From NCBI GenBank assembly GCA_001662655.1, contig KV460242.1: a DNA stretch of 64,000 bases; one strand, 5' to 3'. The notes beneath the pieces were generated by a model that saw only the letters and a program-made list of their open reading frames with translations, made no database searches and was not told where the DNA came from. The stretch is from Pseudogymnoascus verrucosus. Lineage: Eukaryota. A program made the translations under genes and the position numbers. The stretch's first letter is position 1, and the number at the start of each line of letters is the position of its first letter. Positions 28,803-59,956 of this stretch are shown here, piece by piece.

Positions 28803-29837
28803 CTGAGTATACATATATACACAGAGATGAGGAGGGATTATTCAGTGGCTGAGGGAACCATGAAATTGATACCAGCAATCTAATATTATCAAGGAAGGAG
28901 TGTGTAAGCAGCAATGTGAAGCCACTGTAATTCCTGCTTTCAAATCATTTAATGGTCCACTGTAGTCTATCGCCACGGGGTCTATTCATCAGCAAGGAGA
29001 CTAAAGTGGCAGATAAATCGCCATCCGAAGTTATGCTTTAGCGATGATTCAAACTGCCGACGTGAGTTAACATTCAGAATTTCCTAATTTAGAAAATGGT
29101 AACTAATTACTTAATCAATGTTTTTTAGACTAGACCGTAAGAGTAATATTTTAACATTCTGAGTGGATACACTACAGTAGTGCGTTGACAGGGATAAGAT
29201 GGAGCTTATTCCATTTTTATTGGAGCGAATTCCCTAATTTGGAAAATGGTATAGTGCTTACTTAACCGAATTTCAGAGGACGCATTAACTTAAGTAGCGC
29301 GTGTTACATAGGCACCCAGTGCGAGCCTCGCAGCGAATGCGAGTATTACCCTTTTCATACACCGCCTTTTAGTGTGTTTCAAGCCCGTATTTGACACATC
29401 CCTAGCATGAAATCAATCAATCCTTCAATCAACTCTCAACAACCATTTTCTATGGAGCTCTCCGCACAAATCGACCATATGATTTTGATTACTAAATGTT
29501 GGCTTGCGGTGAACGTTTCTTTAGGAACTACTCCACAACACCAAACCTTTTATCAGCTAGCACGCTACGATAATCCAACCCATGTCCAAGAATATGGGTT
29601 AGATTACACTAACAAAGAGACGAATTAACTACGTACCAACTTGAGTTGATTATGAATGCACTCGAGACGAACATATATAAAGAGTGTGAGGATAACCTCC
29701 TGGGTCATTATATTCATCGTCCAGCAGGGAAAGCATAACAACACGGTCAGCTCCTGACTGTTCCATCACGAGTAATCTATTATAAATTCGAAGCCTTATT
29801 TCCCAAAGCTCCTAGTCCAGCCCTGGCTTCAGAAGTC

Positions 29838-33909: not shown

Positions 33910-34121
33910 CAGATCGGTTTTGTCCCTGCTGAATCATATTCGTAGCCCCTCAGTAAGTTGGGGGCCGCGCTAAGTTGGGGAGCCGCGAATAATTAAGGAT
34001 CCACTCAATATAGTTCTGACTACGCAGTACGGAGAAGTGTACTATTTGGTGGGTCCTCGGGAAGCATGGCTAAATGTGATTGGTCAGTAATCACCATTAT
34101 CCCAGTTAGGAAATATTCGAT
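33910..34121 (+). repeat. Dispersed repeat family R1, copy 1 (contains CArG-like box)
   Basis: Reverse complement of 44250..44443. Shares AATGTGATTGGTC..ACCATTATCCCAGTTAGGAAATATTCGAT with 48408..48455. Confidence 0.88.
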
Positions 34122-34353: not shown

Positions 34354-34369
34354 TTTCCCGTTTAGGAAA
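34354..34369. promoter_or_regulatory. Mcm1/ECB-type CArG box upstream of the SDR gene
   Basis: TTTCCCGTTTAGGAAA fits the yeast ECB consensus TTWCCCnWWWRGGAAA. It lies about 250 bp upstream of the ATG, with TATATAA near 34478. Confidence 0.6.
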
Positions 34370-35580: not shown

Positions 35581-35703
35581 TCTGTAGGTTGTCAGCATTA
35601 TCCTAGTTAGGAAATATTTGATCCAATAATATTGAAGTCCGCCGCGCTTCAATAATACTGGATCAAATATTTCCTAACTAGGATAATGCTGACAACCTAC
35701 AGA
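35581..35703. repeat. Near-perfect palindrome: 57-bp arms (2 mismatches) with 9-nt loop, built from R1 repeat
   Basis: 35581..35637 is the reverse complement of 35647..35703, with the first 45 bp perfect. The right arm continues as an R1 copy to about 35750. Confidence 0.95.
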
Positions 35704-35876
35704 CAAATCACATTTAGCAATGCTTCCCGAGGACGCACCAAATAGTACACCAGAAGAAGACATCGCCCCCGAAGACCCGCTATCCTCCATCCTCAACCGC
35801 CTTCCCATTTGTTCACGAGACTGCCGCAAATGCAGGAATCCTGAACCCCTTAGTAGACTCAGCTGATACTGCTAGA

Positions 35877-40608: not shown

Positions 40609-43130
40609 ATGAAGTCATCAAGTGAGCCCTTTCCTATGATGTCTCTCTGTTGGACTGTGGCAGAAGCTAAGGGAAAGCAATTCAGCGGTGCGAGGTCCAG
40701 ATAGGATAACGTGCTCAACACCGAGAATCGTTGATTCTGAAGCAAGTCTTGGCCTACAATTCGTGAATACAACTAGCACGACGACAATAGATGACTCGGC
40801 TAAACGAATAATTCGAGAGAACGCCTCTCACTATGGCCGCAGAGCTAGGGCGCCTTCACGCAGAGCTTGCCCAAAGCCTCCATCAATGAAGCGTACCGAT
40901 GGTTCCACGACGGGCCAAGTTCACCGATTCAGACTCGGCCCAGAGGGTCTGAAACTGACGTCGAATAAACGAGCGAATAAACGAGGCAAAAGAAGCCTGA
41001 ACTTCACGAGTCCATCCATCGGTTCGGACAAGCAGCCTTCGGCGGTCAGAGCATCACCAGCGCTCCAACGTTTGGCTGGAACTTCTCGCCTGGCAGTGAC
41101 GAGGCCAAGGCAGAGAATTATAGCTAGGGAAAATGAAGAAAATAAATTATTCCCAGAATCCAGCTTTAGGACTGCAATCGGGCCACCACCAGATGATTCT
41201 AGTCAAGAAAACGTCGCGGAGCTCGTAAGATGGACCAAAGAGCAACAGCTAACCTGGTTGAAAACACTGCTCTACCCTCGAGGTAGTTCCCTATACGGCG
41301 TAAGTTCTTGCGCTATGGATCCGTTTGACGCCATGTCTTTGAACATCACCCCTCGGGAGCAGATCTTGATTCGCGACTACTGTGAGTACAAATCCAAATA
41401 TGGAGTATGAAATATGAATGCTACCCTCACAGTTCTCTTTTTTGTTGTCTCAAGTGGTTTTATGCAATGATTTCCATCATTATCAATAGCAGTTGGAGCG
41501 TTGAAGAATTCCAAAGCTTCCGCCCCCAAAGTAAAATTCTGATGATGTGCCTGATTTCCTCTATCATTATATTGCTCGCTCCATGCCGAGACTTTCATTT
41601 GACGATTCACAACATATTTCAAATTACTAACTTAACAACAGTTAAAGATGATTCACCTCTAATACCATACTGTAAAGCCTTCTTCGGGCTTGCAGTTCAA
41701 GACGAGGCAGCATTCCAGTACGTAATCCGGCCTATAGTTTTCCTAGTCGGCATTGGTTCATGAAATCAGACCCTAAATATATCTTAAAATATGTTGGACG
41801 AAACACGCCGGATAAGACGTGTCTTCGCAGCTCATCAACTCTGACTCTGTTAGCTAACTGAACGATGCTGATTCCGAAATTCCTAGTGCTGTGCTCTCTC
41901 ACTACTCGGCGACCTTTCGACTGAAGTGCCGATACGGGAGTCCAGTAGAGAGCCTACTTCACCTTTCGAGTGCAATCCAGATAATCCACGAGAGACTTCA
42001 AGACCCGACGGAGAGTTGCAGTAATGGTACGATGAGTGCAGTTGCCACTCTGATCATATATGAGGTTGGACTCCCCTTAATTAAAGTGGGTGTATCAAAT
42101 GACGCAAAACCGCTGACTATTATGCCAGTCGGCCAATGGATCACTTCCTAATATAGAGCTTCACATGAGAGGTTTAAAAGATATGGTGACGAGGCGCGGT
42201 GGTTTCGAACGGGGGAACTTTCCCCTCGACCTAAAACGATTGATTACTTGGTAAGGGATTGAGTCACCCTGGTGGGCTTCCACTGCCGTCATATATCCAG
42301 CAAGAGCTTGGAGCAGAGGTGAATATATATGAGTTGCGGACAAGTGTTGCGCTCCTTTTCGAAGCCAACTTCAATGTTCTGAGAAAGCAGCCTAACATAC
42401 TCTACTAACTCAAACCAGGGCAGATTTGAACACGGCCAATGACTTGTGGCAGCCTCCACGCTTTCCCGCCTTTGAGCCCCCGCTCGCCGTACTCCCTCCT
42501 ACGGAAACACGTTTCTGCCACCAGGAAACTACACAATTCGGAGTGCCATCGTCCATCATGCCTTCTACCAAACCAAATATTGACACCGTCATCGATGAAC
42601 TCAGAACCTTCGCCACCGAACTGGCAGTAGTAAGCCGATCCCTCAGTCCTCTCAACCGTTCCCGCATCCAAATCAGCGACGAAATTCAGCACATGGAACG
42701 CAGGATTTTCGACCTGATTCACAACCCTCCCGCATTCAAGAACCCGCTCGACCATTCCTGTGCCATTGCAGCTCTGATATACTTGCGTGCAAATTTGCGA
42801 GACAACTTCTGCAACTTCGGCGTTGTCAAAACGAGCAAACTCCAAGTTGCGTTGCAATCAGTCTTTGAGCTGGCTGATTTGTGGAAGTGGGGCTTGGATG
42901 TGCGGAGTCGAGAGAAACTTGTCTGGGCGGTGGGATTTGGCGCGGTGTCTAGTGATGGTGGACCTGAGAAGCCGTGGTTTGTGAGACTGTTTAGGGATCT
43001 TTGCGACACATTTGAATTGCGAAGGTGGGAGCGTGTGAAAGATATTTTCAGAACTGTGTTGTGGCAGGACGAACTGGATGATGAGGGCATTAGACTTTGG
43101 GAGGAGGTGCAGAAGACTCGGTGTGGGTAA
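40609..43130 (+). CDS. Fungal_trans_2-type transcription factor-like protein without Zn2Cys6 cluster, multi-exon (first intron 40622..40685)
   Basis: N-terminal LQFVNTT...AKRIIRENASHY; MDPFDAM; AIQIIHERL; HMRGLKDMVTRRGG; LITW/ADL; W..VKDIFRTVLW. No CxxCx6C upstream. Confidence 0.8.
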
Positions 43131-43329
43131 TAATACAAACACCTGGGCGTCTGAATATCATGCAATACAATATTGGAATTGAGTATTGCAATATTAACCA
43201 ATGTTCTCAATAGTACGCAGTATTTCTGTACAAACCGTGCAGTATCGTCACCAGGCGAAACACCGTCTGAGTAAAAATGTCTTCTGCTCTTCTAGCTCAT
43301 GTTCGAACCGTACAGTCTCACTTTTCAAC

Positions 43330-43790
43330 TTGTAGTTTGAGTGGGGTAAAGAGGATAGGGGAATCCTCGTAATCTGTCTCCATTCTAGTGAATATCTTGC
43401 AGAGCAGTTATAGCTGTTACAGACGACTATGGTATTACTCCTGCAGTTTTTACTATCACTCGTGATAACGCTTCTGCAAACACTAGCATGCTCTTAGAAT
43501 ATGAGAACTTAGCATGCAAGAACGAAACTACATTACAGCAACCATAGGCATATACAACAAAAGAAGGCGATGTTAGATGTATTAGACACATTATAAACCT
43601 TGCTGTTCAAGCTGCTTCAACATCGTTAAAGGAAGTACCAGCAGATGAGCCAAATGCATACCGTATGGAGCTGCCCGAGTTCCATCACTACCAGAAAATG
43701 AGTTAGTAGCTGCTCTTAGCAAACTTCGGCGTCATATATGTGTTTTGCAACCGACGGCAATGGAAGAATGCTTTAAAAAAGGCAATGTGA
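43330..43790 (+). mobile_element. Degenerate hAT transposase fragment
   Basis: TITRDNASANTSM (catalytic D-N-A) and DVRCIRHIINLAVQA (CxxH motif), interrupted by stops. Confidence 0.75.
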
Positions 43791-43899
43791 AGCTGCAAAT
43801 ATTGAGTTTAAGCGTCCATGGTCTTCACCGTTTCTTGGTCCCTAGCGAGATCGAGCTTCGAGGAGAAGTTGTCCACTACCTGTGCTACGTATTAGTTTC

Positions 43900-44180
43900 T
43901 GCAGCTCCATAGGTTACAGTCTGGTATTTTACTTTGCTGTCCAGACCTTTCATGCCGGAAATCCCCTTCGCCTCTTAGAACGAGTGTACTTTGATAGCGC
44001 ATTTGGCAAGTATAGTCTTAAACTCCCTATGAATATTATCCAAAACCTCATCGTTGACTTCAAGAGTTTGTACAAGCCGTTTGTTTGAGTCTTGAAGGGC
44101 TAAGCTCGCTAAGCTTGATGCGATCATCCCCCAACCTACGTACGTGCTTCCTCGATGTGGTGTCCCGAGAAAAACATTCA
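43900..44180 (-). pseudogene. Fragment of a SesB/DUF676-like lipase domain typical of fungal NACHT/NLR proteins
   Basis: FLGTPHRGS...LASLALQDSNKRLVQTLEVNDEVLDNIHREFKTIL...HSF*EAKGISGMKGL. Confidence 0.7.
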
Positions 44181-44222
44181 GCTTTGTCCGTTTGCATATT
44201 GTCTCCGATCGACTGTCGTAAT

Positions 44223-44443
44223 AGGCGCGGCGGGCTTCAATAATATTAGATCGAATATTTCCTAACTAGGATAATGGTGATTACCGACCAATTACATTTA
44301 GCCATGCTTCCTAAGGACCAACCAAATAGTACACTACTCTGTAATGCTCTGTCAGAACTATATTAAGTGGATCCGTAGGTGCGCGGCCCCTTAACTTAGT
44401 AAGGGACCGCAAATCCTATTTAGTAGGGGCTAAACGGATCTAG
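44223..44443 (-). repeat. Dispersed repeat family R1, long inverted copy
   Basis: Matches 35642..35750 directly and 33910..34121 as reverse complement. Confidence 0.88.
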
Positions 44444-44939
44444 TTAGTGTTTCTACATGTGATAGGTAGTCCTAAGCTTAGGATTACGCCACCCTGTCTT
44501 CTTAGCGCTATAGTGGTTAAAAAACAAAGGATAGGCACCTCTATTCTTAGATGGAAAAGACCCTTTATAAAGCACAGAAGGATACGAAAGATAGGATAGC
44601 ACAGAATAATAGAATAGACAACTAAAACTAATTACTTACTAAATGTGCTTACGTTATGATAGACATTGAGATAAACTCTCTAGGATTAGTAGCAAACCTA
44701 CAGAAGTAACCGTTTTTTTAGTCCTGTTGGAGAAGCTAAAATATCCTGCATTTACACTTTACAGAGAGGATATACTCTGTGTATGTCTACTCAGGATTTA
44801 ACGCCCAGGGCACTAATCGCAGTGTCTCTCCAGCGCTGTTGCAGTTATATACCACTACCACCATGTCTCACATATGAGAGTCGTATTAGAGCCATTTTGG
44901 TTAGGCATTAAGCCTCCTGCCTAACGATGGAAATTTCTG

Positions 44940-45230
44940 CTCGCAAGAAGCTTACGTAGCATATTAATTAATTAATCAATTTATAGTAGCCAGCTACGTC
45001 TACAACTAGGGGGTTTAATTACAGCAGAGGAAGCCTAGGCTTTACAGGTGTCTAAAGTAGAGCGGGATACCTAGAAACAGCTAGGCAAAGAAGCCTAGGC
45101 TGCTGATGTAGCTACTGCTAAAGCTAAAAAGCAGCTGTACTAAGCTAGAGTTAAGGCCTAGAAGCTAGAGCAGTTAGGGAAAAAGAGGGTAGCAGCTCTT
45201 TAAAAATAGCGTAGCGAGGGTTAGATCTAA
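44940..45230 (+). mobile_element. RIP-like degraded Fot1/pogo transposase C-terminal relic
   Basis: RLQLGGLITAEEA-like segment followed by a K/R/A-rich stretch with heavy TA enrichment. Confidence 0.35.
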
Positions 45231-45403
45231 CGATTACGCTATAGTCTACATGTAACGTTATAGTACCAGATATAGAAAGAAGAAAATCACACATTACTAG
45301 AATTACATTATAAGGGCACATTGCTCTATAAGATAATAAGATTAGCTTAAGCAAACGTCCCTATATTTATAGCATGTACTTTATAAATAAGAGAAGATAG
45401 AAC

Positions 45404-46165
45404 ATGTTTTCTAAGATTATTATAGTAGCGGCTTTATTAGCTGTTAGATTTATTACTAAAGCTACTTAGAGCTTTAGTAATGTAGGTACGCTCTCTAGCT
45501 TAGATGCTTAGACAATGGAGGATAAGGGATCTATTAAAGTGGTTACTAATGTTGTCTATAAAGGCACTACTACTCTTAAGATGACATAGATTTACAACTC
45601 TAGCTAGACTAGACGCTTTCACTTAGAGAAAGCAAAAACTAGCGTCTATAAGCTTAGTAAATAAGGCTTCTATAGATTTGCTTTCTACCTATAGTAGGAC
45701 TAGTAATTCTCTCCTACTTAGTTGTATAACCTGGGGTAATTTATTACTAACTTTACTAACATAGGATATAATAACTAGATGCCTATATGTATAGTATAGA
45801 TTATTAGAGACTAACTATACACCTGCTTAAAGTATAGGACTATCTACGTATAGTAGATTTACACTTTTAGTAACATTATAACAGTATTAGTAGGAGTCTA
45901 GCATAGAGTCACTATTTAAGCAGACTAGCAGTTAGACAGCACGGGATACTACAAACTCTAGCTTAATAGCGTTAAAGTTGTTAAGATATATAATGTCCTA
46001 ACGATAATTAATGACAGCTATGCGTTTAATTTCCACGTTAGTCTCTATGCGAATAGATGGCATGATGACGGCGGCATGAAAGGTACCTAAGGTACTCGCT
46101 AGGTATGGTATAATGAGATATCAGTCGGTACCACCTTTTCAGATGCGGATCCTACGTCTTGGTAA
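45404..46165 (+). pseudogene. RIP-like inactivated polysaccharide lyase family 20 (beta-1,4-glucuronan lyase)
   Basis: Signal-like start; NVVYKGTTTLKMT*; FYRFAF; DSTGYYK; SLYANRWHDDGGMKGT*GTR*VWYNEISVGTTFSDADP matches my recollection of the PL20 C-terminus. Many CAG/TGG-to-TAG changes. Confidence 0.85.
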
Positions 46166-46229
46166 AAGGAGCGCAGTACAGGATATCACAGGGAAGATCG
46201 GGTTGGGGCGAGGTGGCCTAGAAAATCTT

Positions 46230-46620
46230 ACCTTGCTGAGATAGGCAGCCGGTAACAGCTTATAGCTAGACATGAAATATCCAGTCTGAATATGCGACAC
46301 CTTCTTCGCCAAGCTAGAATACTTCTCATTGATATAACTAGGAAAGACATCGGCCTTCGCATCAAAATGATAAAGCTCTGTGAATTTCCCCTTGCTACAC
46401 GAGCCTGCATGGCTCAAGGTAGAAGTAATGAATCATTTTCTTCGAGCGTGTCTATGATCTTCATAGCAGCAGCCGCAATGTTCTTTCCCAGCTGCACCTC
46501 TACATCATACGCATACTTGCGACAATCGATACCGAGCTCCTGAGCTTTAGCACGGCAGTCGGGTCGGAAAAAAGCTCTTAGTAGTTGGTCACACTGAGGA
46601 TAAGATCAGCGCCTGCGAAT
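46230..46620 (-). pseudogene. NmrA-like (HSCARG-type) gene fragment
   Basis: SVTNY*...YDVEVQLGKNIAAAA...GKFTELYHFDAKA...IQTGYFM, with a stop and a frameshift. Confidence 0.72.
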
Positions 46621-47173
46621 GACGGTATTAGAGTCTGTGGATCGTCGAGGTTGCCAACTACGAGGGTGGGACATGGCGGTCGTGGCTTGGGATAACTTTG
46701 GAGCGCCCACGGTTGTCAATTTTGCAGGATCGAGCTCAAAAACATCCCGTCACCGAATACACTGGTTTTCGCATTCGAGAACTCTATGGAGTGGGTCAGC
46801 CCACAGGGACGCTAACCACGGCGGACTAGACTACTCAGAAAACTACTTCCAGGTAAACGGGAATGCGAAAACCCATTATCCTTGATCTTTTACGCTTAGA
46901 TCCAAGGAGCCGCCGCAGCATATAATAGACAAGACAGTACATAAGATTTGGAAGAGAAGACGGGTGGCATGCTGATGTTAATTCTAAAAATATGGGGTTT
47001 CTAGTAGTTGTCTTGGCAAGCAATGTGGCAAGATGGCAGCCGTATATGGCTAACTAGATGTTACCCACGCAGAGGGAATCGGATGATTGAAACTGTCTGG
47101 GATTGGCAGAAGTATCTCAAAGTCAACAGCAAAGGCACTACTAGTATTGGTTTGAAACAAGCTGCAATTCCAA

Positions 47174-48026
47174 TTAAAAAGTATCGTATAGGTTGTTCAA
47201 TGGCTGTACAGCCTCCTTCCAAGCTGGTCTTTCGCTAACTGTCTCCCACCAGTGTTTTAGATGCTTCCTCTCTAGTATTAACCCTTGATACCCCACCTTT
47301 AGAAGCATGTGTAGAAGAGGCATGTAAAATCCGTCAACCAAGGAATATTGCCTCCCTGCCATGAAACTCTGCTTCGAAAGAATCCTATCAATAATATCCA
47401 GATTGACATTAAGAGTCTGAAGGAGAGGTAAAATTTCGTCCTCAGGGACCACTTTGCCTTGGAATCTGCTCGTTGCATACATTAGCCAGTAGTTTTTTTA
47501 AGTAACGCGTCAAATCCACTTCCGCTACTGAATCAATGACTGACCTGGCAATAATCTCCTTAAGAACCAGAGGCTGAGCAAAGTGGTCAAATTGTGTAAG
47601 CTCTATAGAAGCAGCTTCTTCAAAGAGTGCGATCGACCTGCTATTCTCCACATCCGGTATTAGAGGCTTCCCGAGGCTGCTGTATTTCCAGGCAACGTAT
47701 CGAGCTATGGCGCGTGATTCTAGCTAGTGGTATCAGCAATTATTACTCTGAGACTACTCCAGGTCTTAAACAGTACCGAAAAGAGTGAAGTCTCCTTCAG
47801 TTAAGACGGGGACCTTGCCAAATGGATTGAGAGCTAGGTAATCAGGTCTCTGCTTGCAGTTAGTCGCCAGCTCTGATATTTTCATATGGGAAGAAATAGA
47901 GACCTTCTGTTCTTGAGCCGACAAGTTTAATGAAATTTCTTCCACAGTCATTCCTTTCTCAAGAAGTGCATGACGAGCACGGAGCGTATTCCAAGAGCTT
48001 ACCGCTCCGTATAGCTTGATAGACAT
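47174..48026 (-). CDS. Glutathione S-transferase, 4 exons
   Basis: IKLYG; EQK/RPDYLALNPFGKVPVL; LF/ESRAIARYV; FMAGRQYSLVD; WWETVSERPAW. Confidence 0.9.
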
Positions 48027-48407
48027 GGTTCCTCCAGCGAGATGTCGTGTGTTATTTGCAGACCGAACGCAGAGGTCGACCACAAAAAAGAGAGTATATA
48101 TATGTATGTGTGTATGTGTATGTGATCTCTTGTGAAAGAGCTACAATAGTTCACCTGCGTCTTGTGCTGCTGAATATATACTCCTCGGCTAGACCAGCGA
48201 GCAATGCGTTACTTGGCGCCGAACACAATTTGACTGTAGTACCTGTACGCGCATTGTTTCATCAATAATGAGATGACATCATTGTCTAAGAGCGGGAATT
48301 TTTCCAAGTTAGTCCTTCTCTACTTGGATTAGCTAACCTTTGTGCGAAGCTAAAAAACATTGTTAGAAGAATGGCACAGACGACCGTGGCATTTGTGCTG
48401 ACACGTT

Positions 48408-48482
48408 AATGTGATTGGTCGGTAACCACCATTATCCCAGTTAGGAAATATTCGATCCAATATATTGAACTCCGCCGCGCCT
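48408..48482 (+). repeat. Dispersed repeat family R1, short copy between GST promoter and TF 3' end
   Basis: AATGTGATTGGTCGGTAACCACCATTATCCCAGTTAGGAAATATTCGATCCAATATATTGAACTCCGCCGCGCC matches the other R1 copies. Confidence 0.88.
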
Positions 48483-48631
48483 CATCTTGTGACGACATTG
48501 AAGAGCAGAAGTAAAATCAAGGGAGATATAGAAGCTTCTTCGAGCGATTTATATTCGTAAGCCGTTTAACTCGTATTATTCATCCGAATCCTTCGATATC
48601 ATCTATCTAACGTCGTTCCAGTCTCCCTCTT

Positions 48632-50438
48632 TCATGATGTAGCCGTCATTTCAGCCCAGACGATGGTAAGATACCGATCGCTAATATCATCAAACCAGGC
48701 GAGTTCTCTGAGTTGATTCCTGAGTTGATCCTTGTCTTGAATTCCCAGAGTTTCCAAGATTAGCGCCAGAAGGTTGATGAAATAATCGCTGCTCTCTCCT
48801 GGAGGGCTTGCTGCGGCCCCTAAAAATATCATCCATACAACAAATCCCAAGACCTGTCCCTCGATAACCTGGGTAGTAAATGCGCACTTCACAAATAATC
48901 GAAGTCTTTCCGTTAGAGGGAGGTGAATTCTTGCCATTCTTGGGATCTCCCGTATTATCAAGTGCAGATATAGGATCGCGGCGACCGAAAATGCTTTGTA
49001 CAAACTTGAAGCCTCACACGAGTTACATTTCGCGAGGTCCATAAGCAGACGGTGATTGACAAGATATATGACATGGCTAATGGTCTTCCTCTCCTCCAGT
49101 GATAGTTCACTCGCCTTCGCCTTAGCTGCTGAGATTTGTTGTAAAGTTTCCCATACATCAAAGTTGATATGTTCATTGAGACTAAACATGCTCGGACCTT
49201 CTTTATATTGTGCGATAGGCAAGTACTTGATTGCGATATCTTCGAGGATAACCGCCAGAGGACCAGGGTGAAGTTGATTTGGAGCAATACAGGGTTTGCT
49301 ACCCCACATTGTGGCGTATAGTAGATCGATCCTGGCACTGCGTGTTAGCAATAATGTAACGCAATTTGTCCAAATTATTAACTCGTACCAAGTTAACACT
49401 CGCAAAAGAACTTGGTTGTGCATTAAATTATTCACACCACCTCGAATCCTAAGCATCTCCATGAGTCCTTTCATATGAGGTTTTGATGCGTCTGATGTTC
49501 CATGCAAGGTCTGAGAATCAAATTAGTTCCCATGTGGCTAATTAGAATCAGTCATGATTGTTAGGTGCAAGAGACTCACCTCGAGTTTTATTAGCACAGC
49601 TACTACGGCGAGATTCTCGTCGCTTGGCGGTTGACCAGATAGTAGACGACTATTGATAGCATGAATAGCTTGTCCTTTGTGAGTCAAGGAATCCGCAGAT
49701 GGTTCACGGTGGATGAGAAGATCACGATGAAGCGCAACGACGCCAAGGGTAGCATGGAGCAGTGCTGGGTCTTTGAAACTGAAAGAGATCCAGTTTCCCT
49801 CGGGGTTGAGAGCAAAGGAGTTGATTGTATATGAGGTGTTGTCTGTACAGGAGGTAAGTAACTATCATTCATCCTCGGAGAGCAGGAAGTAAAGGAAAAT
49901 TAAGATACTCACAGTGGTATAAAAGTAGCCGCGTCTCCCGTGTGGTTGGTATTGAAAGACTTCCATATCCGTGTAATATGGTGTCGATTGGCAGTAAGAA
50001 GTGAGCACGACTGGAATAGATGGTCATTACATAGCATCATACCTGAAATTTAACTTCCGTTTCTTTTGATATCCTTGCACCAGATTCATCCGGTGCAGAA
50101 GAAGGGTTATTATTCTTGGGACTCTTTCGAGACCAAGTAGAAAGTTTGAATTTTGTCTGGGAACTTTTAGCTGTAACTGGGGCAGCTCTTGACGAGGCTG
50201 TTTCCGTCTTCTTGGGGCTGAACGTCGACTCTTCTCGCTTTGCGCGCAGGAATGATCTCATCGCCTGGGTTCGAACAACATGGGAGTATGTGGCCTTGGC
50301 CGACTCTGGCCGATCAGTGACGGTAATAAATATCAGTTGCTTAGGCTGGGCCACAGCTTCTGATTGGTTTAAGCTATCTGCTACGCCTGGTTCCCTGCTG
50401 CCTTCCGGCCTTCCCTGGTAAGCATAAAGCCAATACAT
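48632..50438 (-). CDS. Second Fungal_trans_2-type transcription factor-like protein without Zn2Cys6 cluster, multi-exon; start uncertain (50438 or 50566)
   Basis: QLIFITVT...SHVVRTQAMRSF; DPALLHATL; HKGQAIHAINSRL; HMKGLMEMLRIRGG; VLTW/IDL; WMIFLGA; LRELAW. Confidence 0.8.
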
Positions 50439-50811
50439 ATATTACCACCTTGGTTACATCCGCAAATGTTTCCTTACCTAGTTGGTTGAACGCCATAAAG
50501 AGATGTTGAAGGTCCTGTGACGACCCCAGGCGCCACCTGATGATCCTTGCCAGATTGCGAGGACATGCTTCACCCGGTACTTAGTCAACCATTAAGGAAT
50601 TATTATCGTAGAGAATATTGTAATTGAAGTTAATAGAAGCTTTAAACACGCATTTAAAGAAGCAAGTTGTTGACTTACAAGCAGGAAATGATGCTGAATA
50701 ATTATCTACGTCGTCTTGCTAGTGTATGTATACTATGTCGCATAATACGTCACTCTGACTAAGCTTAATTTCGATTAGTCACTACTCCCTACCTCTGTGC
50801 GTATACATATA

Positions 50812-51150: not shown

Positions 51151-53453
51151 TATAGTCGTAATCACGTGGTTTTAAATGTTTTTCGCCACATAACCACTCT
51201 ATTCTCTCATTGATTTTGGGATAACAACCACTACAGCTGGTCATCACTACGCCTTATTTCCTGAAAGTCCGAAGGCTAGCACTCTCGTGATTTTATGATC
51301 GCCTTACATTTTTAAACTGTACTAGTACTATTAAAGCTAGCTCCACTATATCCCTCCATTAGCTTACTACCCCTGCTCACACGTTACAATTTTGGCTGTC
51401 GTCGGCTCTGATCATAGCTCACCAACCTATGCGGCTGGCCGAGGATAATCGTCGGATCGGAAGCTCGCTTCGCTCACAGTCGGTTGAAGCAAGTTCGCCA
51501 GCAGGAGCTACTCCGACATCATTTGCTCCTTTATCGTAGCCATTAAACCCCGTGAAGCTTGTAGACTGTCCGTAGACCTTGAATAGACCTTTGTACATAA
51601 TTCCAATGTTGTATGAGCCGTTGCGAGCGATAAACACCCCACACGAAGTAGATTATACGAGGTAGATTATGCGAGGTAAATTATAAGAGATGATCGAATG
51701 GCGGACAAAAATTCGAAATTCATACTAGCAGGCTCGTTTCGTACAAAATATAACTCTAAAAGGAGCTTCGGGTTAGTCTCCAGATAGCGATTTATCAGCC
51801 AATTTATGCTACAGCGATGATTGATGAGTGGCGTAGGTTAACGACTTTTAGAGTTCTGTTGACCGAGGTAGGTCTTCTTGTGCATGAATCGTATTTGGAT
51901 TGATTGATTGAAGAGCATTATAAGAATGCCCTTATTCTGAAGCTACAGGGGTTACGGCGTAGCATCGCCTAATAAGGAAACAGCGCCTTGGCTAAATACA
52001 GGGGTTGAGTCTAACAAATTCCCTAATTTAGAAAATGGTGTGATGTGCCCCTTATCTCATTAGTACTGTATGAAGCGCACGACCTACTTACTGAGTTAGG
52101 CTTAATCTTTCTTCATTTTTCGGGGTTAAGGTGTATGATGCTTTCGGGCGTTAAAGCACGCCTTCATCAAATCATACGAGCCATAATTTGCTACTTGCTA
52201 GGTAGATGGCCACCAGGAAACTAGCACAGAATTGGAAATCAAGAAAACACTAGAGCGGAAAGCGGAAAGTAGACCCAGTTTCAACGCCGCAGCACATAAT
52301 TGATCACGACGACGGCTGCACGGCACCGGCTCTCTGTTTGGACCGCATTGGCGTATTGCATTTTGTGAGACCAGAGGACAAGCTGCCACTCGTCCCCGTT
52401 GACAGTTCTGTCCTCAAGCGGTTAGGATTAGAATCAAGTGAGGATGGAGATCGTGACGGCTAAATAATGGATCAAAGCTCGGGTTGCTGGAAATGTGAGT
52501 GGAAAGAGCGGTGCAAGCGATGCAGGAGAACAAGAGGTTATTAAAGGGAAGACGATGAAGTATTATGACTAGGAGTTCAAATGACAATTTTTTTGTTGTG
52601 CTGAGATGATCGTTCGACTGTAGTAAAAGATCAAATTCTTCACCTACCCTTTTACCGTGATTCTACTTTAGACTTCTATAAGAGGCTTCACATACTAGCT
52701 TCACCACCCAAGTGGTCGGAGCGAACACGGACGATTATCGATTAACGCATGACGTGCTTGAAAAGACCTCCCATCTCCCCACTCGCTTACCCCGCTCCTT
52801 AATCACCAGAGGAACACATCATCGTCATTTGAAACCAGGAAAAAGAGCCACTATCATCCCCGTAACATTTATTAACAAAGGAACGCGTCGAATATGTCAA
52901 ACACTATGAGAGAGACAACGTTCGATCGCGTTAGGAGAACCATCGGAGACTGGTGGCGGCAGACCATGCTTACAAAGCCTTTAAGCTCTCGAAATGCACA
53001 ATGCTTGTAAAACGAATATCTCATCGGGCTAGTTACTGAATTGCCCTTCTGAGTATCACCGCGACTACTCTTCCGATTGTGGATCTTGCGGCTGCCCGCG
53101 TGTAACGGACGGTCTAATATTGCTAACGCTAGAGGATATAACACGGGAGGCATTGAGGCATGCTCCATTAGTGAGGTCTTTCGGCATTTACGTCTAAAAG
53201 TTGACTGTTACTTAAGGTGGCAGGTACTAAGTTATATGCAAAATAATTATTTCGATAATCTGTAAAAATCTAGCGAATTATGGCATCCATGGGTTTCCAA
53301 AGCGTTCGGTTCATCACATACCTTGTCATCACATACCTTGACATCTCAGGTACAAATCGCACCACTCTCCTATATATGTTCCCTAGTGCAGATGCGCCAG
53401 ACCATCGATCCTAGTTAAAGACACGCCCCGATAGGTCAACATTTCTACAGGCA

Positions 53454-56066: not shown

Positions 56067-57177
56067 TCACAGATCGAAGTACTCTAGTGCCGTCTGCAAG
56101 TCCTCCACTAAGGGCTTCTGCGTTGGCTTATAACCCAATGTCTTCTCTGCCCGCTCCGACAAGAAGAGTTGATCTCTAGACATGAGCATCGCTAGCTCCC
56201 CTCCATCATCAACATCTTCCCGCTTGATCGACTTGGGAATTGGAGAAGGGATCAGGCCCCTAGCGTGGAAGACCTCTGCAAACTTTGCGCTCAGTTCAAT
56301 CCACCTGTTCAGGTTTGCCCCAATGATGTAGCAGCGCTCGTAGACGCTACCTTGAGGCGTTTCTTCTTGCAGTGACAGGTCAATCATTCGGAGTAGCGGG
56401 GGGATAATGTCAAGGACATGCATCTAGGCTGGTTAGATTATGCGTGGAAGATTAAGAGACCCGCATGGGTTGGAATACTTACGGTGTTGAAACGGACAGT
56501 TCCATCACCAATATAGGGGACATAGCCAAGCTCCTTAGCCTGCCGAATCATGAGGCTCTGAATTACGCCAGGGCTCTTCACCGGTCCAGTGGACCGGCCA
56601 TACAGAGCTGTGGGAAAGAGGATATACGTTCCAATCTTGCCCTCTTTTCCGGCGTTGAGGATACTGCATCACATTAGTGTTTATCTAGTATCGGAATCAG
56701 CCTTGAAAGGCTCACACTTCGTCGGGAGCACCGTTAAGCATTCCTGAATTGATCAGTTCCATGTCCTTGACGTTGGAGTCCTGTTCATGTCAGATACTTC
56801 ATCCATAAAAACTAGAGATGTTCACTGACATTCCACACTTTGCAGTTTGGATTCGCGATGCCAGTGTTTGACTCAGTGTCGACGAAATTTCCAGCTCCGC
56901 TCATATGTATCAGTGTTGACTTGACACCCGCAGGTCTCTGATTAAGGCCGGCCAAAATGGCACGAGTAAGAACCGGATCAAAGGAAGACCCTACATTGAT
57001 AACAATATCATGATCCTTTGCCAAGGCTGCTAATTTCTCGGTTTCCTCAAACGTCCCGTAGACGATCTTCTGAACACCGGCTGTCTCATACAAGTACTTC
57101 TCAATGCTTTTGTTACGCAGATAAGCCGTAACAGGGAAAGTGGGATATTCTTTCTTGAGGGCGATGACTAGGTGCGC
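56067..57177 (-). pseudogene. NAD(P)-binding epimerase/dehydratase-like gene, multi-intron; first exon (TGxxGxxG) not found
   Basis: VTAYLR; HDIVIN; LIHMSGAGNF; TYILFPTALYG; PYIGDGTVRFN; HVLD; SERAEKTLGYKP. Downstream exons look intact. Confidence 0.6.
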
Positions 57178-58626
57178 TGCAACACAATGTCAGTCAATCT
57201 CAACTGCAGTGTTAAGAAAGCGCTTAGTAATCTCTATGAGTTCGACATAGCAGAAGCAATATCAACGGAATGACGGACACCGAGGCTTTTGGTGAATCCG
57301 ATAGCAGTCGAATAGATCGATAAACCAAGAGACTCAGAGACCTGTATGTGTGGTTCTCTGATCTTAGAATAAAGTGTGGGAGAGCTCTCACGACGACGTG
57401 CGGGCTCGGGAGATAAATTCACGTTACTTACAGCCCACGCAACCGGTAGCACCCAAAAGCAGGATTGAAGGCATCGTAGAAGGCGACTCAGTGTTATAGG
57501 ACTTAACGCGGTGGTGACGGGTTTTGGAAGTTCAAGATCCTTTGTACTAGAGGAATGTAGTTGTGCTGAACATTAATCTCTGCTTACTATCTCGTGCCTT
57601 TTATAATGGACAATATGGAGTAGTAATCCAACACTTGGCGTTGATTACCAAATGACCTAATTTTTCTATCATCTCCGACGTGCCGATGACATGGGCAATT
57701 CTCTCTTATTTCCACTTTAGGGAAGTCTTAACTTTAGTCTTCTTCTTGATCTTGTTATCGGTCTCCTAGAACCCTGCATGGCTACTAGCTCAGCAATTTA
57801 CCTAATCTGGTGATTCTTCCTCTGTTGCACGTCATGGTCCCTGCATATTATTCTACACCTGTCTACATACCTTCAATCTTAATATGGTTATGATGATGAT
57901 TCTATTTAACGTCTGTGTTGCTCTAAGTGCCTCTAATTCCAAAGACAGGACGCCAGGAGTAAACGCCCTCGAGGTAGAGGTCGCATTTGGGTTATCATTA
58001 ACAAGTGCATACAATGATCCATATTCTAACCTGGCGAACTGGTAGTACCACTAGAATTTCTAAAGTGGATATTGCGTAGAGAGCTAGAGTCGCGTAGTGC
58101 ATCAACACAAGAGTGGCTTGTGGTACTATAGATGTCGGTTAACCATCTCATTATATTTCTACTTTAAGAAAATGGTGTCAATTTTAAAATCCCTCGCTTA
58201 GTCTCATGTACAGTCAAACCTAGATACACCGAACACAAATAATTTGCATGGGGGAGAGGAAAAAAATCCGTTATAAGGAGGAATTCCTGTACATTAATCC
58301 CTGCTCCTATACAAATTATCCCAGCTCGGTTTTGCTGAGTTCTCCCGCACAAGGAGGGAAATCTAAGAAGTGGGGTATGTCGCTAGCCGAGCTAAATCGC
58401 ATTGCCTGAACCACTTCAGGTTGGATTACGGAGTTCACACCCAAAACTTGCCCCGCAGTACAACTGATCAAGATGATGCCTAGTAGATGCTTACATATGT
58501 TTGAAACTATTACCGACGGATGCGTGTAAGTTCATATTTCATATTAAACTTCTCACGATCCTAAGCTCTTCAACTTCATTCTAGACGTCCATAAACCCTT
58601 TCATATACTTAGGAACTAGGTCCATA

Positions 58627-59956
58627 GGGTTGCTCTACGCCATGGCCAATCCCAAGTCAAATGTTACCTAAGTCATGAGACAAGGTTTAAGTATGTACAA
58701 CTTCGTAGAATTTCCAGGGCTTAGCTAGTCAAAGTCTCCCAGCATATGCCGGTCTAACCGCCATTAAGTCTAGCTACTTTTTCACAGAAGACTAAGTCTA
58801 TGTAGGCCTATACGCTACAAAATATTGCCTAATTAGGAAAATGCGGCCCACTCCGCACCTGTTAGGGGCTCTTTCCTGCTAAGTCCAGGTCTGGGCATCT
58901 TCGATTCATAGTGGATAGTAAACAACACAACCAACTTTAGGTGCACTTAAGTCTAGTCCGCGGCGACTTGAGTGGCGGATGCTACTACGGCCCTATAACC
59001 CCACGTTTATAAGCACTATTAATGCCGCACCAGTCCGCAGTGTGATATCGATCAATAGGTCCGCTTTCAGGCCCCTAGTTAAATTGGTCAAAGGTCTTTT
59101 CTAGGAGGAAATTATACGATAAGTCATACGCTCAGAATTTGGACTTGGATTGAAACTCACACCTTTGGAGGAACCCATTGCGCAGATAAAGCTTATAGTA
59201 TCATGCGCAGTAGAGAGATGGTGTAAGCGATATAGAAATGGTCAGTTTCATAGATGAATGATGAAAGATAACGCGACGACGTCTACCAGATGGAAATTGA
59301 CTCCGCACTACTAAAAACCCCTTCTTGGAGCCTGTAGGGCCAAAAGTCACGGCTTACGTGACGTCGTAACCTGTTTATTAGTTCTCTGAATCGAATTGCT
59401 CCGTCGCCGAGCACTCACTGCTCGTTCAGACATAGAGGCACCCATATCACCACGTATACTATTTGTTTAATAATCAATTATAATCTAAAACAGCAAAATC
59501 GCTTTGCAAACTTCCTAAATAGACTTAGCGATTCCACTTATCCCCTCGTCCGTCTCGGAGATAAATGGCTTATGCAGCAAATTGTTGATCCTTTGGTTCA
59601 GTTATATTTTTCGGGACGGCAGAGCCACTCTGTAGAATTGGCGTCGGAATAAATCACCCCGCCCGCTAGCTGAACGCTAGTCGAGCCACATCCAACGGTG
59701 AGCCCCTGTTCGGTGCGGAGTAGGCCGCATTTTCCTAATTAGGCAATCTTTCGTGTATTAGACATGGCGTACCGGCCGAAATAGACTCAGGCTTCTGTGA
59801 AACAGCAGCTAGACTTTATGGCGCTCAGACCGGCATATTCCGGGAGACTTTGACTAGCTAAGCCCTGGAAATTCTGCGATGCTGTACATGCTCAAACCTT
59901 GTGTCATGACTTAGGAAACATTTGACTTGAGATGGCCAATTGGCGTAGAGTTGCCC
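58627..59956. repeat. ~245-bp inverted repeat pair (58627..58871 and 59700..59956)
   Basis: Long colinear reverse-complement match, e.g. GAATTTCCAGGGCTTAGCTAGTCAAAGTCTCCC vs GGGAGACTTTGACTAGCTAAGCCCTGGAAATTC. Each arm carries a CCTAATTAGG box. Confidence 0.92.

What the first reader, a model, noticed from the sequence alone, without database searches (positions are those of the whole stretch)
40609..50438. Two Zn-cluster-less Fungal_trans_2 regulators with a MATalpha2-like strand plus basic helix: candidate Mcm1 cofactors
Seen: neither protein has a CxxCx6C cluster. Each has a short N-terminal motif: GLQFVNTT-x7-AKRIIRENASHYGRRAR (about 40751-40850) and QLIFITVT-x10-SHVVRTQAMRSFLRAKR (about 50340-50235). 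Established, from memory: yeast MATalpha2 docks on Mcm1 through the beta-strand GLVFNVVT, and Arg81, a regulator with a related C-terminal domain, works in a complex with Mcm1/Arg80. Inference: these proteins may use the F-containing strand to dock on Mcm1, the basic helix to read the CAT flank of the local CArG boxes, and the C-terminal domain to sense a ligand. That would make a sensor + Mcm1 box + detox enzyme cassette; TF2, an R1 box and the GST are directly adjacent at 47.2-50.4 kb. I am not aware of this being described.
Basis: inference. Interest (0 to 1): 0.82.

Follow-up and report, generated by a model that had tools for sequence, protein, structure and literature searches.

The report
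Zinc-less fungal regulators beside P-box elements
Two neighbouring fungal genes encode regulators that lack the usual zinc DNA-binding cluster but share a conserved N-terminal module, and they sit among enzyme genes whose promoters carry a repeated Mcm1-type DNA box, which makes a regulator-box-enzyme unit testable although binding to Mcm1 is not shown.

Summary
Both genes (TF1 40609-43130 +, TF2 50566-48632 -) are intact, intron-rich paralogues of the Fungal_trans_2 (PF11951) family in a Pseudogymnoascus-like genome. No Zn2Cys6 motif is encoded in any frame nearby. The short N-terminal motif is real and is a family hallmark: in 25 aligned sequences F is kept in 20 of 20, T in 25 of 25 and the helix Arg in 25 of 25. 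Two more conserved modules follow it.

The Mcm1 reading is only indirectly supported. The TF2-GST box is not a strict CArG box. It belongs to a 25-nt element, AatATTtCCTAA.T.GGAaAATGgtG, whose core resembles the yeast Mcm1 palindrome. The window holds 12 copies against 0.33 expected, most of them upstream of enzyme-like ORFs. A metagenome scan for the element alone returned two independent fungal contigs. One carries a clear TF2 homologue with the same N-terminal motif; the other carries a weak PF11951-like C-terminus.

Resemblance to the MATalpha2 strand is uninformative: about 45% of random 7-mers work there, and that interface arose only in the Saccharomyces clade. No complex could be predicted.

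Most likely these are local regulators acting through this element (about 0.45). Mcm1 partnership has odds of about 0.2-0.25.

The parts
40609..43130 (+). TF1 gene, 598 aa. Exons: 40609-40621, 40686-41381, 41642-41717, 41887-42064, 42129-42250, 42419-43130 (stop TAA).
   Evidence: The model was built by eye and guided by homologues P0019, P0029 and P0035. It gives an open frame and all introns are GT..AG. The last exon scores 20.1 bits against PF11951, just under the cut-off of 21. blastp against TF2 gives E 5e-17 over 345 aa. The only RNA cover is 42974-43124. The start codon and intron 1 are inferred.
40751..40850 (+). TF1 module A: GLQFVNTT, an 8-residue spacer, then the amphipathic basic helix AKRIIRENASHYGRRAR.
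   Evidence: AlphaFold2 predicts a helix at exon residues 36-54 with pLDDT 76-83. The F-containing segment is coil with pLDDT about 49.
40922..40960 (+). TF1 module B: HRFRLGPEGLKL, a predicted beta-hairpin.
   Evidence: In A1, F is kept in 23 of 24 rows, R in 21 of 24 and G in 19 of 24. AlphaFold2 predicts strands 80-84 and 87-91 with pLDDT about 71.
41318..41381 (+). TF1 module C: DPFDAMSLNITPREQILIRDY, the entry to the PF11951 domain. A phase-1 intron follows at the same position as in TF2.
   Evidence: In A1, P is kept in 22 of 22 rows, F in 22 of 22 and Y in 21 of 21. Shared intron position.
48632..50566 (-). TF2 gene, 539 aa. Exons: 50566-50478, 50409-50043, 49991-49913, 49842-49580, 49510-49389, 49331-48632.
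   Evidence: The frame is open. Three introns are seen as joints in a soil metatranscriptome contig. The protein is identical in aligned parts to P. verrucosus VE01_07982 (P0001), which scores 52.3 bits against PF11951. The start codon and intron 1 are taken from the P0001 model and are not seen in RNA.
50235..50339 (-). TF2 module A: QLIFITVT, a 10-residue spacer, then SHVVRTQAMRSFLRAKR.
   Evidence: The homologous motif in L003 matches at E 6e-10.
50118..50156 (-). TF2 module B: TKFKLSTWSRKSP.
   Evidence: L003 has GRFKLSSWSRKS at the matching position.
49913..49991 (-). TF2 exon 3, encoding PIDTILHGYGSLSIPTTRETRLLLYH(Y), which is module C. Three annotated orthologue models skip this exon.
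   Evidence: RNA contig X1 record 5 joins 50043 to 49991 and 49913 to 49842. P0001, P0042 and P0043 all lack this exon.
49992..50042 (-). TF2 intron 2, 51 nt. It contains an in-frame TGA at 50039-50037. Its ends in the window are GT..TG, so the 3' end is non-canonical.
47174..48026 (-). Glutathione S-transferase gene downstream of TF2 on the same strand. Its intron at 47466-47544 is confirmed.
   Evidence: GST_N at 1.2e-11 and GST_C at 5.6e-8. RNA joint.
48408..48463 (.). It has a CCAAT box, the core TATCCCAGTTAGGAAA at 48433-48448 and a CCAT flank. It lies 407 nt upstream of the GST ATG and about 185 nt after the TF2 stop codon.
   Evidence: The same 16-mer occurs at 34098.
33994..34121 (.). 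Element copy (core at 34098-34113) upstream of the SDR gene. It is the left arm of a 128-nt inverted repeat.
   Evidence: I1, 89% complementary.
34354..34369 (.). Box TTTCCCGTTTAGGAAA, 271 nt upstream of the SDR ATG at 34625.
35581..35750 (.). Two element copies back to back (cores at 35599 and 35670). They form a 57-nt palindrome, 96% complementary, upstream of the glycosyltransferase ORF that starts at 35857.
   Evidence: I3, I5, D4, D5.
44225..44377 (.). Element copy (core at 44258-44273), 1.1 kb downstream of the TF1 stop codon. It is the right arm of the 128-nt inverted repeat that brackets the SDR, glycosyltransferase and TF1 genes.
   Evidence: I1, I2, I4.
29080..29245 (.). Two boxes (29080 and 29230), 758 and 608 nt upstream of the alpha/beta-hydrolase ATG at 29838.
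51965..52034 (.). Two boxes (51965 and 52019), about 1.4 kb upstream of the TF2 ATG.
58642..59940 (.). Inverted duplication about 230 nt long, with arms 58642-58871 and 59700-59940. Each arm carries TTGCCTAATTAGGAAAATGCGG. It lies between two NmrA-like genes.

Best explanation
TF1 and TF2 are paralogous members of a zinc-cluster-less branch of the fungal Fungal_trans_2 (PF11951) regulator family.

In place of a Zn2Cys6 cluster they have a conserved three-part N-terminal module:
- Module A is Q-F-[VI]-N-x-T followed by an amphipathic helix that ends in an Arg/Lys cluster.
- Module B is an H-R-F-R-L-G beta-hairpin.
- Module C is DPF...LL.YY, which leads into the helical C-terminal domain.

The most likely role is local regulation. 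They would control neighbouring redox and conjugation enzyme genes (GST, SDR, glycosyltransferase, hydrolase, NmrA-like) through a shared 25-nt promoter element, AatATTtCCTAA.T.GGAaAATGgtG.

The core of that element matches the Mcm1 palindrome, and one side carries a fixed extra flank. The most likely specific mechanism is therefore this: a MADS protein (Mcm1) occupies the core, and the zinc-less regulator is recruited beside it, touching the AATGG flank through its basic N-terminal module.

Shown: gene structures, family membership, absence of a zinc cluster, conservation of the module, over-representation and positions of the element, and recurrence of the regulator-element pairing in one clear and one weak independent contig.

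Inferred: that the regulators act through the element (about 0.45), that Mcm1 binds the core and partners with them (about 0.2-0.25), and that the F-containing segment is the contact (about 0.1).
For: Family and structure:
- PF11951 matches.
- TF1 against TF2 gives E 5e-17, and they share intron positions.
- No Zn2Cys6 is encoded nearby.

Conservation of the module:
- There are 24 database relatives.
- Column counts.
- Several relatives start with Met directly before module A (P0021, P0022, P0024, P0031).

The element:
- 12 matches to TTTCCTAATTAGGAAA at 3 or fewer mismatches, against 0.33 +/- 0.53 expected; 0 of 100 shuffles reach 12.
- All 12 lie in 29-60 kb.
- For eight of them (29080, 29230, 34098, 34354, 35599, 35670, 44258, 48433) one search places them about 130-760 nt upstream of an enzyme-like ORF. 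The 58825 and 59731 copies lie between the two NmrA-like genes, whose starts are not defined. The 51965 and 52019 copies lie about 1.4 kb upstream of the TF2 ATG and have no enzyme ORF assigned.
- AATG follows the core at fixed spacing in 13 of 15 sites.
- A published table lists the 16-mer as the Mcm1 consensus (PMC1779545).
- Fixed, non-overlapping spacing is described as typical of cooperative Mcm1-cofactor sites (PMC2253631).

Co-occurrence elsewhere:
- The metagenome scan for the 21-nt pattern alone gave 8 loci.
- Four look fungal and represent 2 organisms.
- In L002/L003/L008 the box lies about 215 nt after the stop codon of a TF2 homologue (31% identity, E 2e-51). That homologue has modules A and B (E 6e-10) and no CxxCx6C. 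An NmrA-like gene follows the box on the same strand.
- In L004 the box, a perfect 16 of 16 match, lies about 170 nt upstream of an SDR gene. The SDR is convergent with a PF11951-like C-terminus, E 4e-6 against TF1.
Against: - No binding of any kind was tested.
- Five of the 12 window boxes (34098, 35599, 35670, 44258, 48433) share 46-128 nt of flanking homology, and two more lie in a 230-nt inverted duplication. The count is therefore inflated by local duplication; roughly 6-7 origins are independent.
- Neither regulator has a box within about 800 nt of its own start.
- The cross-genome support rests on 2 independent contigs, and one of them has only a weak match (no Pfam hit at 0.01).
- The other 4 of the 8 metagenome loci have no such gene. 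They look non-fungal, with GC 0.315-0.386, and are probably chance matches.
- The pairing could reflect retained synteny rather than function.
- Type I cores (TAACTGG, TAACTAG) break the A/T-only rule of CArG boxes.
- TF2's second intron ends in TG in this window, so TF2 may be impaired in this strain.
- The full-length AlphaFold2 model was unusable (pLDDT 41), so the relation of the N-terminal module to the C-terminal domain is unknown.
Confidence: 0.45

Rival explanations
1. The F-containing segment adds as a beta-strand to the Mcm1 MADS dimer in the way the MATalpha2 linker does. The basic helix reads the CAT flank, and the C-terminal domain senses a ligand.
For: - The numbering of that strand (G113, F116, N117) agrees with Fowler et al..
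- A helix follows the segment.
- The element has an Mcm1-like core and a conserved AATG(G) = C(C)ATT flank.
- Arg81 with Arg80 is a known Mcm1 cofactor pair (PMC2253631).
Against: - The alpha2-Mcm1 interface arose only in the Saccharomyces clade. About 45% of random 7-mers work there, with no position specificity, so resemblance carries almost no information.
- In that system the strand works because an adjacent homeodomain positions it on DNA. No known DNA-binding domain is found here: Pfam gave no hit on the N-terminal exons, and a PDB profile search gave 0 hits at E<=10.
- The segment is not predicted as a strand.
- F in 20 of 20 rows and T in 25 of 25 is far tighter conservation than that interface requires. 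Fowler et al. do note that the natural alpha2 sequence is also conserved, without explanation.
- Ligand sensing was not tested.
Confidence: 0.1
2. The N-terminal module (basic helix plus beta-hairpin) is itself a new DNA-binding module. It reads the 25-nt element directly, perhaps as a dimer on the palindromic half-sites, without Mcm1.
For: - The module replaces the Zn cluster at the same end of the protein.
- It is basic and conserved.
- The element is palindromic in TTTCC/GGAAA and is unlike the CGG triplets typical of Zn2Cys6 sites (that comparison is recalled, not tested here).
- The regulator-element pairing recurs.
Against: - Modules A, B and C are separated by variable, low-complexity linkers.
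- AlphaFold2 does not pack them into a domain (pTM 0.24).
- No structural match was found (best Z 3.1 among 48,161 chains).
- The core is a near-perfect Mcm1 site, which Mcm1 would be expected to occupy.
Confidence: 0.15
3. There is no functional link. The element is a locally duplicated promoter fragment used by some other factor, or a repeat. The regulators lie near it through shared duplication history. In this reading the N-terminal module serves nuclear import (the Arg/Lys cluster) and intramolecular or partner contacts unrelated to the element.
For: - Copies share up to 128 nt of flanking homology, and inverted-repeat pairs bracket genes.
- The basic tail after the helix resembles a monopartite nuclear localisation signal (read from the sequence; an inference).
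- Neither regulator has a box in its own promoter.
- Cross-genome evidence is only n = 2.
Against: - Within copies the 16-25-nt core is better kept than the flanks: D1 is 73% identical overall against 88% for the core.
- In L003 and L004 only the box region (31 nt in L002/L003/L008) is similar to the window. The rest of those loci does not align. This is the pattern expected of a constrained site, not a recent repeat.
- Different enzyme families follow the box in different genomes.
Confidence: 0.25
4. TF2 is a decaying copy in this strain. Its second intron has a TG 3' end and holds an in-frame TGA, so correct splicing may fail.
For: - The intron ends are GT..TG.
- Three annotated orthologue models avoid the exon that follows.
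- TF2's module A and module C are more divergent from the family consensus than TF1's.
Against: - A metatranscriptome contig from a close relative (4 mismatches in 417 aligned nt) shows exactly this 51-nt intron removed, which keeps the frame.
- The rest of the ORF is intact.
Confidence: 0.15

Closest known systems
Zn2Cys6 regulators with a Fungal_trans_2 (PF11951) C-terminal domain. Examples seen in papers: SocA of A. nidulans (PMC6952808) and MoAfo1 of M. oryzae (PMC8053852). Arg81 and Upc2 are recalled as members, not checked.
   Same: They share the C-terminal helical domain family. They are fungal, and the family is large, with 60 proteins in B. cinerea and 86 in T. atroviride (PMC8637145).
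   Different: Those proteins carry an N-terminal Zn2Cys6 cluster. TF1 and TF2 and their relatives have none, and carry modules A and B instead.
MATalpha2-Mcm1 cooperative complex of S. cerevisiae
   Same: Both involve a short hydrophobic, Phe-containing segment next to a basic region. Both involve a DNA element with an Mcm1-type core plus an adjacent, rigidly spaced flank.
   Different: - alpha2 brings its own homeodomain, and the interface is clade-specific and degenerate.
- Here no DNA-binding domain is known.
- The flank lies on one side only.
- The organism is a Leotiomycete.
- Interaction was not tested.
Mcm1-Arg80-Arg81 control of arginine genes
   Same: A regulator of the zinc-cluster class works as an Mcm1 cofactor at metabolic genes (PMC2253631). 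This is the nearest precedent for the idea.
   Different: Arg81 has a zinc cluster. The targets and the element differ.
Cluster-specific regulators next to their target genes in fungal gene clusters (general knowledge)
   Same: The regulator gene sits beside enzyme genes that share a promoter motif.
   Different: - The motif is Mcm1-like, not CGG-based.
- The regulators lack a zinc cluster.
- The enzyme partner varies between genomes: GST, NmrA-like or SDR.

Membership tests
Fungal_trans_2 (PF11951) | Profile match at or above Pfam's gathering score (21 bits). | tested here: met
   For TF2, the exon at 49538-49861 scores 21.9 bits, and the orthologue P0001, identical in aligned parts, scores 52.3 bits at E 5.5e-14. 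For TF1, the last exon alone scores 20.1 bits, just under the cut-off. TF1's membership rests on blastp to TF2 (E 5e-17 over 345 aa) and shared intron positions. The spliced TF1 protein could not be submitted to the Pfam tool.
Zn2Cys6 binuclear cluster regulators (Gal4 type) | The pattern CX2CX6CX5-12CX2CX6-8C near the N-terminus. | tested here: not met
   The window has no full pattern, and 38-53 kb has no CxxCx6C in any of six frames. The one CxxCx6-8C is on the wrong strand. The L003 homologue has none either. Several relatives begin with Met directly before module A. An exon outside the window or a cluster split by an intron is not strictly excluded. RNA does not cover the 5' ends.
Mcm1 cofactors (alpha2, alpha1, Yox1, Fkh2, Arg81 type) | Physical, cooperative interaction with the Mcm1 MADS dimer on DNA. 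| not testable with these tools
   No Mcm1 sequence could be obtained within the session.
Mcm1 cofactors (alpha2, alpha1, Yox1, Fkh2, Arg81 type) | An own sequence-specific DNA-binding domain placed next to the Mcm1-contacting segment. | tested here: inconclusive
   The N-terminal exons give no Pfam family. The profile gives no PDB sequence match at E<=10. The best structural match is Z 3.1. A new kind of DNA-binding module is not excluded.
Mcm1 cofactors (alpha2, alpha1, Yox1, Fkh2, Arg81 type) | A composite DNA element: an Mcm1 core with a cofactor site at fixed, non-overlapping spacing. | tested here: met
   The core is within 3 mismatches of TTTCCTAATTAGGAAA at 12 window sites, and is a perfect match in L004. 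AATG follows directly in 13 of 15 sites and AATGG in 9 of 15. Which proteins bind is unknown.
CArG / SRF-type box, CC(A/T)6GG | An A/T-only six-base core between CC and GG. | tested here: not met
   The TF2-GST box core is CCCAGTTAGG, with 2 non-A/T bases. Strict boxes number 11 in the window against 4.4 +/- 2.35 expected, and 2 of 100 shuffles reach 11. None lies in 47.2-50.4 kb. Sites with 2 or fewer core mismatches occur at 1.44 per kb. The extended 16-25-nt element, not the strict CArG rule, carries the signal.

The most novel reading that the evidence does not exclude
A Pezizomycotina-wide class of zinc-less PF11951 regulators uses a dedicated N-terminal module (QF[VI]NxT, a basic helix and an HRFRLG hairpin) to join Mcm1 on an asymmetric P-box-plus-AATGGTG element. 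This would form a portable 'regulator - box - enzyme' unit that is copied next to different detoxification or redox genes. It would be a new family of MADS-box cofactors and a new way for Gal4-family domains to reach DNA without a zinc cluster.
Probability: 0.2. Interest if true: 0.85.

Novelty: new variant of a known kind. Interest (0 to 1): 0.6.

Why it matters
Fungal genomes hold dozens of PF11951 proteins each (60 and 86 in two species; PMC8637145). Those without a zinc cluster are annotated as hypothetical, and it is not known how they would reach DNA. My searches for PF11951, Fungal_trans_2 and IPR021858/PTHR37540 returned 20, 11 and 9 papers. Nothing in the listings, or in the passages of four of them that I read, describes this N-terminal module or links the family to an Mcm1-type element.

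This locus offers a concrete handle for experiments:
- a conserved module with invariant residues that can be mutated;
- a defined 25-nt element with separable core and flank;
- neighbouring reporter genes (GST, SDR, glycosyltransferase).

If the link holds, it would explain a large orphan class of fungal regulators. It would also add a case of Mcm1-cofactor innovation outside yeasts.

Tried and rejected
- **Homologue searches outside the length range.** The search for homologous proteins with 'longer' on the TF2 last exon, and on alignment A1, returned nothing. The length windows (519-2000 and 645-2000 aa) miss proteins of 500-600 aa. This says nothing about absence.
- **Full-length model.** AlphaFold2 of P0001 with 14 aligned sequences gave mean pLDDT 41. 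It is unusable and no fold search was run on it. MAFFT alignments A2 and A3, meant to add depth at the N-terminus, were misaligned and were dropped.
- **N-terminal model against PDB.** VIA-align against 48,161 PDB representatives gave a best Z of 3.1, single-helix matches only.
- **PDB by sequence.** The A1 profile gave 0 hits at E<=10. P0001 gave one chance hit at E 0.91.
- **ESM Atlas.** No usable hit.
- **Complex prediction.** The queue was full each time, and the tool was finally declared unavailable. Nothing was folded.
- **Own genome.** It is not held, so Mcm1 and paralogue counts could not be examined.
- **Earlier findings.** Nothing for this place, this sequence or these words.
- **RNA cover.** No contig covers either N-terminal motif or most of TF1. 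This is not evidence of silence.
- **X2 loose end at 44250.** I first read it as a rearrangement. It is more simply a contig of the 34.1-kb element copy laid on the 44.25-kb copy.
- **CArG box at 41394-41403.** The one strict CArG box inside the finding lies in TF1 intron 2 and is taken as chance.
- **Other motif readings.** The GATA-like GGATAA inside type I boxes and the CCAAT box beside them are not conserved in type II boxes or in L003/L004, so they were not pursued.
- **Ribbon-helix-helix reading of module A.** I considered it and dropped it. Only one helix is predicted, and the strand has no clean polar/apolar alternation.
- **Mead et al. 2002 (PMC133914).** The paper is not held.
- **Supplements.** No paper supplements were consulted.

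Full report
**What is there**

The window comes from a Pseudogymnoascus-like fungus. The last exon of the minus-strand gene is 93% identical, over an ORF that includes an intron, to P. verrucosus VE01_07982 (P0001). My spliced model is identical to P0001 wherever the two align.

TF1 (40609-43130, plus strand) has six exons and encodes 598 aa. TF2 (50566-48632, minus strand) has six exons and encodes 539 aa. Both frames are open. All introns are GT..AG except TF2 intron 2.

A soil metatranscriptome contig (X1, record 5) shows three TF2 introns removed: 50042-49992, 49912-49843 and 49579-49511. The first is 51 nt, contains an in-frame TGA and ends in TG in the window. The exon that follows encodes the conserved DPF-like module. 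That exon is skipped in all three annotated orthologue models (P0001 and P0042, 500 aa; P0043, 519 aa), so those models are wrong at this point.

RNA does not cover either N-terminal motif, and covers TF1 only at 42974-43124. Both 5' ends are therefore inferred.

**Family**

PF11951 is matched by a TF2 exon (21.9 bits against a cut-off of 21) and by P0001 (52.3 bits, E 5.5e-14). TF1's last exon scores 20.1 bits. TF1 aligns to TF2 at E 5e-17 over 345 aa, and the two genes share two intron positions and a 122-nt exon. They are the only members of this family in the window.

**No zinc cluster**

No full Zn2Cys6 pattern is present in any frame of the window, and no CxxCx6C is present in 38-53 kb. 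The only CxxCx6-8C in 37-53.5 kb is on the wrong strand, in a short ORF.

**The N-terminal motif**

phmmer of the TF1 N-terminal exon against 1.84 billion representatives found 24 proteins at E<=1e-3. Most are fragments cut at introns. Aligned with both window proteins (A1, 25 rows), they show three conserved modules separated by variable linkers.

| Module | Consensus | Conservation in A1 |
|---|---|---|
| A | [LP]-Q-F-[VI]-N-x-T, five residues, [LI]-D, then a helix carrying [IV]-R..[AV][SM]R...R | F 20 of 20, N 20 of 25, T 25 of 25, D 20 of 25, Arg 25 of 25 |
| B | Q-x-H-R-F-R-L-G | F 23 of 24, R 21 of 24, G 19 of 24 |
| C | DPF..MSL.IT.R.Q.LL..YC | P 22 of 22, F 22 of 22, Y 21 of 21 |

Four relatives begin with Met directly before module A.

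AlphaFold2 on A1 (mean pLDDT 58) predicts four elements:
- a hairpin at 80-91 (pLDDT about 71);
- a helix at 173-195;
- the module C helix.

The F-containing segment itself is coil at pLDDT about 49. The motif is a hallmark of a zinc-less branch of the family, not a peculiarity of these two genes.

**The MATalpha2 comparison**

Fowler, Leon and Johnson 2023 (PMC10334809; I read the abstract and introduction, part 1 of the Results, and the Discussion) place the interface at G113-M123 with a critical F116. Three of their findings bear on the comparison:
- The interaction arose only in the Saccharomyces clade.
- About 45% of random seven-residue sequences work as well as the natural one.
- Hydrophobic and aromatic residues help at any position.

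A 4-of-8 resemblance therefore says almost nothing. The strand also works there only because a homeodomain holds it beside Mcm1. No known DNA-binding domain is detectable here.

**The DNA element**

Strict CC(A/T)6GG boxes number 11 in the window against 4.4 +/- 2.35 expected (2 of 100 shuffles reach 11). None lies between TF2 and the GST gene. The box there, CCCAGTTAGG, has two non-A/T core bases, and sites that loose occur at 1.44 per kb.

The longer palindrome TTTCCTAATTAGGAAA gives a different picture. I recalled it as the Mcm1 site, and a published table lists it as the Mcm1 consensus (PMC1779545). At 3 or fewer mismatches it has 12 matches, against 0.33 +/- 0.53 expected, and none of 100 shuffles reaches 12. 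All 12 lie in 29-60 kb:

| Box positions | Distance and neighbouring gene |
|---|---|
| 29080, 29230 | 758 and 608 nt upstream of an alpha/beta hydrolase |
| 34098, 34354 | 527 and 271 nt upstream of an SDR |
| 35599, 35670 | upstream of a glycosyltransferase |
| 44258 | upstream of a short minus-strand ORF that is convergent with TF1 |
| 48433 | 407 nt upstream of the GST |
| 51965, 52019 | about 1.4 kb upstream of the TF2 ATG; no enzyme ORF assigned |
| 58825, 59731 | between two NmrA-like genes |

Oriented alike, 13 sites give the consensus AatATTtCCTAA.T.GGAaAATGgtG. AATG follows the core in 13 of 15 sites and AATGG in 9 of 15. This is a one-sided flank at fixed spacing. Tuch et al. 2008 (PMC2253631, passages only) describe that feature as typical of cooperative Mcm1-cofactor sites.

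The copies are not all independent. Five share 46-128 nt of flanking homology that includes a CCAAT box. A 128-nt inverted repeat (33994-34121 and 44250-44377, 89% complementary) brackets the SDR, glycosyltransferase and TF1 genes. Two further copies lie in a 230-nt inverted duplication. Within copies the core is better kept than the flanks.

**Co-occurrence elsewhere**

Four of them have GC 0.315-0.386 and no similarity to the regulators. I take these as chance matches.

The other four have GC 0.465-0.483. Three of those are one organism, 98.9-99.4% identical. In that organism:
- The box lies about 215 nt after the stop codon of a TF2 homologue (31% identity over about 405 aa, E 2e-51; PF11951 at 2.3e-8).
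- The homologue's N-terminal exon reads ELKFVTTT...VVRSHAMQAFLREKK and GRFKLSSWSRKS (E 6e-10 against TF2), with no CxxCx6C.
- An NmrA-like gene follows the box on the same strand.

This is the same order as TF2 - box - GST in the window. Outside about 31 nt around the box, the DNA does not align to the window.

In the fourth contig (L004) the box is a perfect 16 of 16 match. It lies about 170 nt upstream of an SDR gene that is convergent with an ORF resembling the TF1 C-terminus. That resemblance is weak: E 4e-6 pairwise and no Pfam hit.

The enzymes in these contigs are not homologues of the window's enzymes.

**Reading**

Identity is secure: these are zinc-less PF11951 paralogues with a conserved three-part N-terminal module. 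I put the odds that they act on neighbouring enzyme genes through the element at about 0.45. The support is the shared promoter element, the neighbourhood, and the recurrence in a distant relative.

I put the odds that Mcm1 binds the core and that the regulators join it at about 0.2-0.25. That is the single most likely specific mechanism, and it is wholly inferred.

The main rivals are direct DNA binding by the module (0.15) and no functional link (0.25). Separately, TF2 may be impaired by its TG splice end (0.15).

**What is in print**

Searches for PF11951, Fungal_trans_2 and IPR021858/PTHR37540 returned 20, 11 and 9 papers. From the listings and the passages I read, none describes this module or an Mcm1-type element beside such genes. 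The characterised members I saw (SocA, MoAfo1) have zinc clusters.

**What could not be done**

Noticed in passing
window 49992-50042 (minus strand): TF2 intron 2 is 51 nt, holds an in-frame TGA and ends in TG rather than AG in the window. Even so, a close relative's transcript shows it removed exactly. Three public gene models of the orthologue skip the exon that follows.
   Followed up: partly
window 33994-34121 and 44250-44377: A 128-nt inverted repeat, 89% complementary, brackets a 10-kb block holding the SDR, the glycosyltransferase, an unassigned 413-aa ORF (37525-38763) and TF1. It could mark a duplicated or mobile block. No target-site duplication was looked for.
   Followed up: partly
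window 58642-59940: An inverted duplication of about 230 nt (86-87% complementary) lies between two NmrA-like / NAD-binding genes (56815-57572 minus strand, 60402-61319 plus strand). Each arm carries CCTAATTAGG with the AATGCGG flank. A third partial copy is at 59994-60011.
   Followed up: partly
window 44400-46200: This is an AT-rich stretch (GC 0.378 in 44-46 kb) without long ORFs. It has no cover by the contigs of run X2, whereas its surroundings are covered. It may be an insertion or a degenerate repeat region.
   Followed up: no
window 43975-44265 (minus strand): A short ORF carries an FLGTPHRGS-like motif that resembles the lipase/esterase-like N-terminal domains of fungal NLR-type proteins (recalled). 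Pfam gives no hit. An element copy sits at its 5' end.
   Followed up: no
window 1-28000 versus 29000-64000: The left part (GC 0.49-0.55) holds housekeeping-type genes: two DEAD-box helicases, a MatE transporter, an FAD/BBE oxidase and a beta-lactamase-family protein. It has none of the 12 boxes. The right part (GC 0.38-0.48) holds the enzyme and regulator genes and all the boxes.
   Followed up: partly
window 41394-41403: The only strict CArG box inside the finding (CCAAATATGG) lies 13 nt into TF1 intron 2.
   Followed up: no
locus L001 4001-4030: An AT-rich metagenome contig (GC 0.315) with no regulator homologue also has the box followed by AATGGTGAT. This is probably chance, but the organism was not identified.
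   Followed up: no
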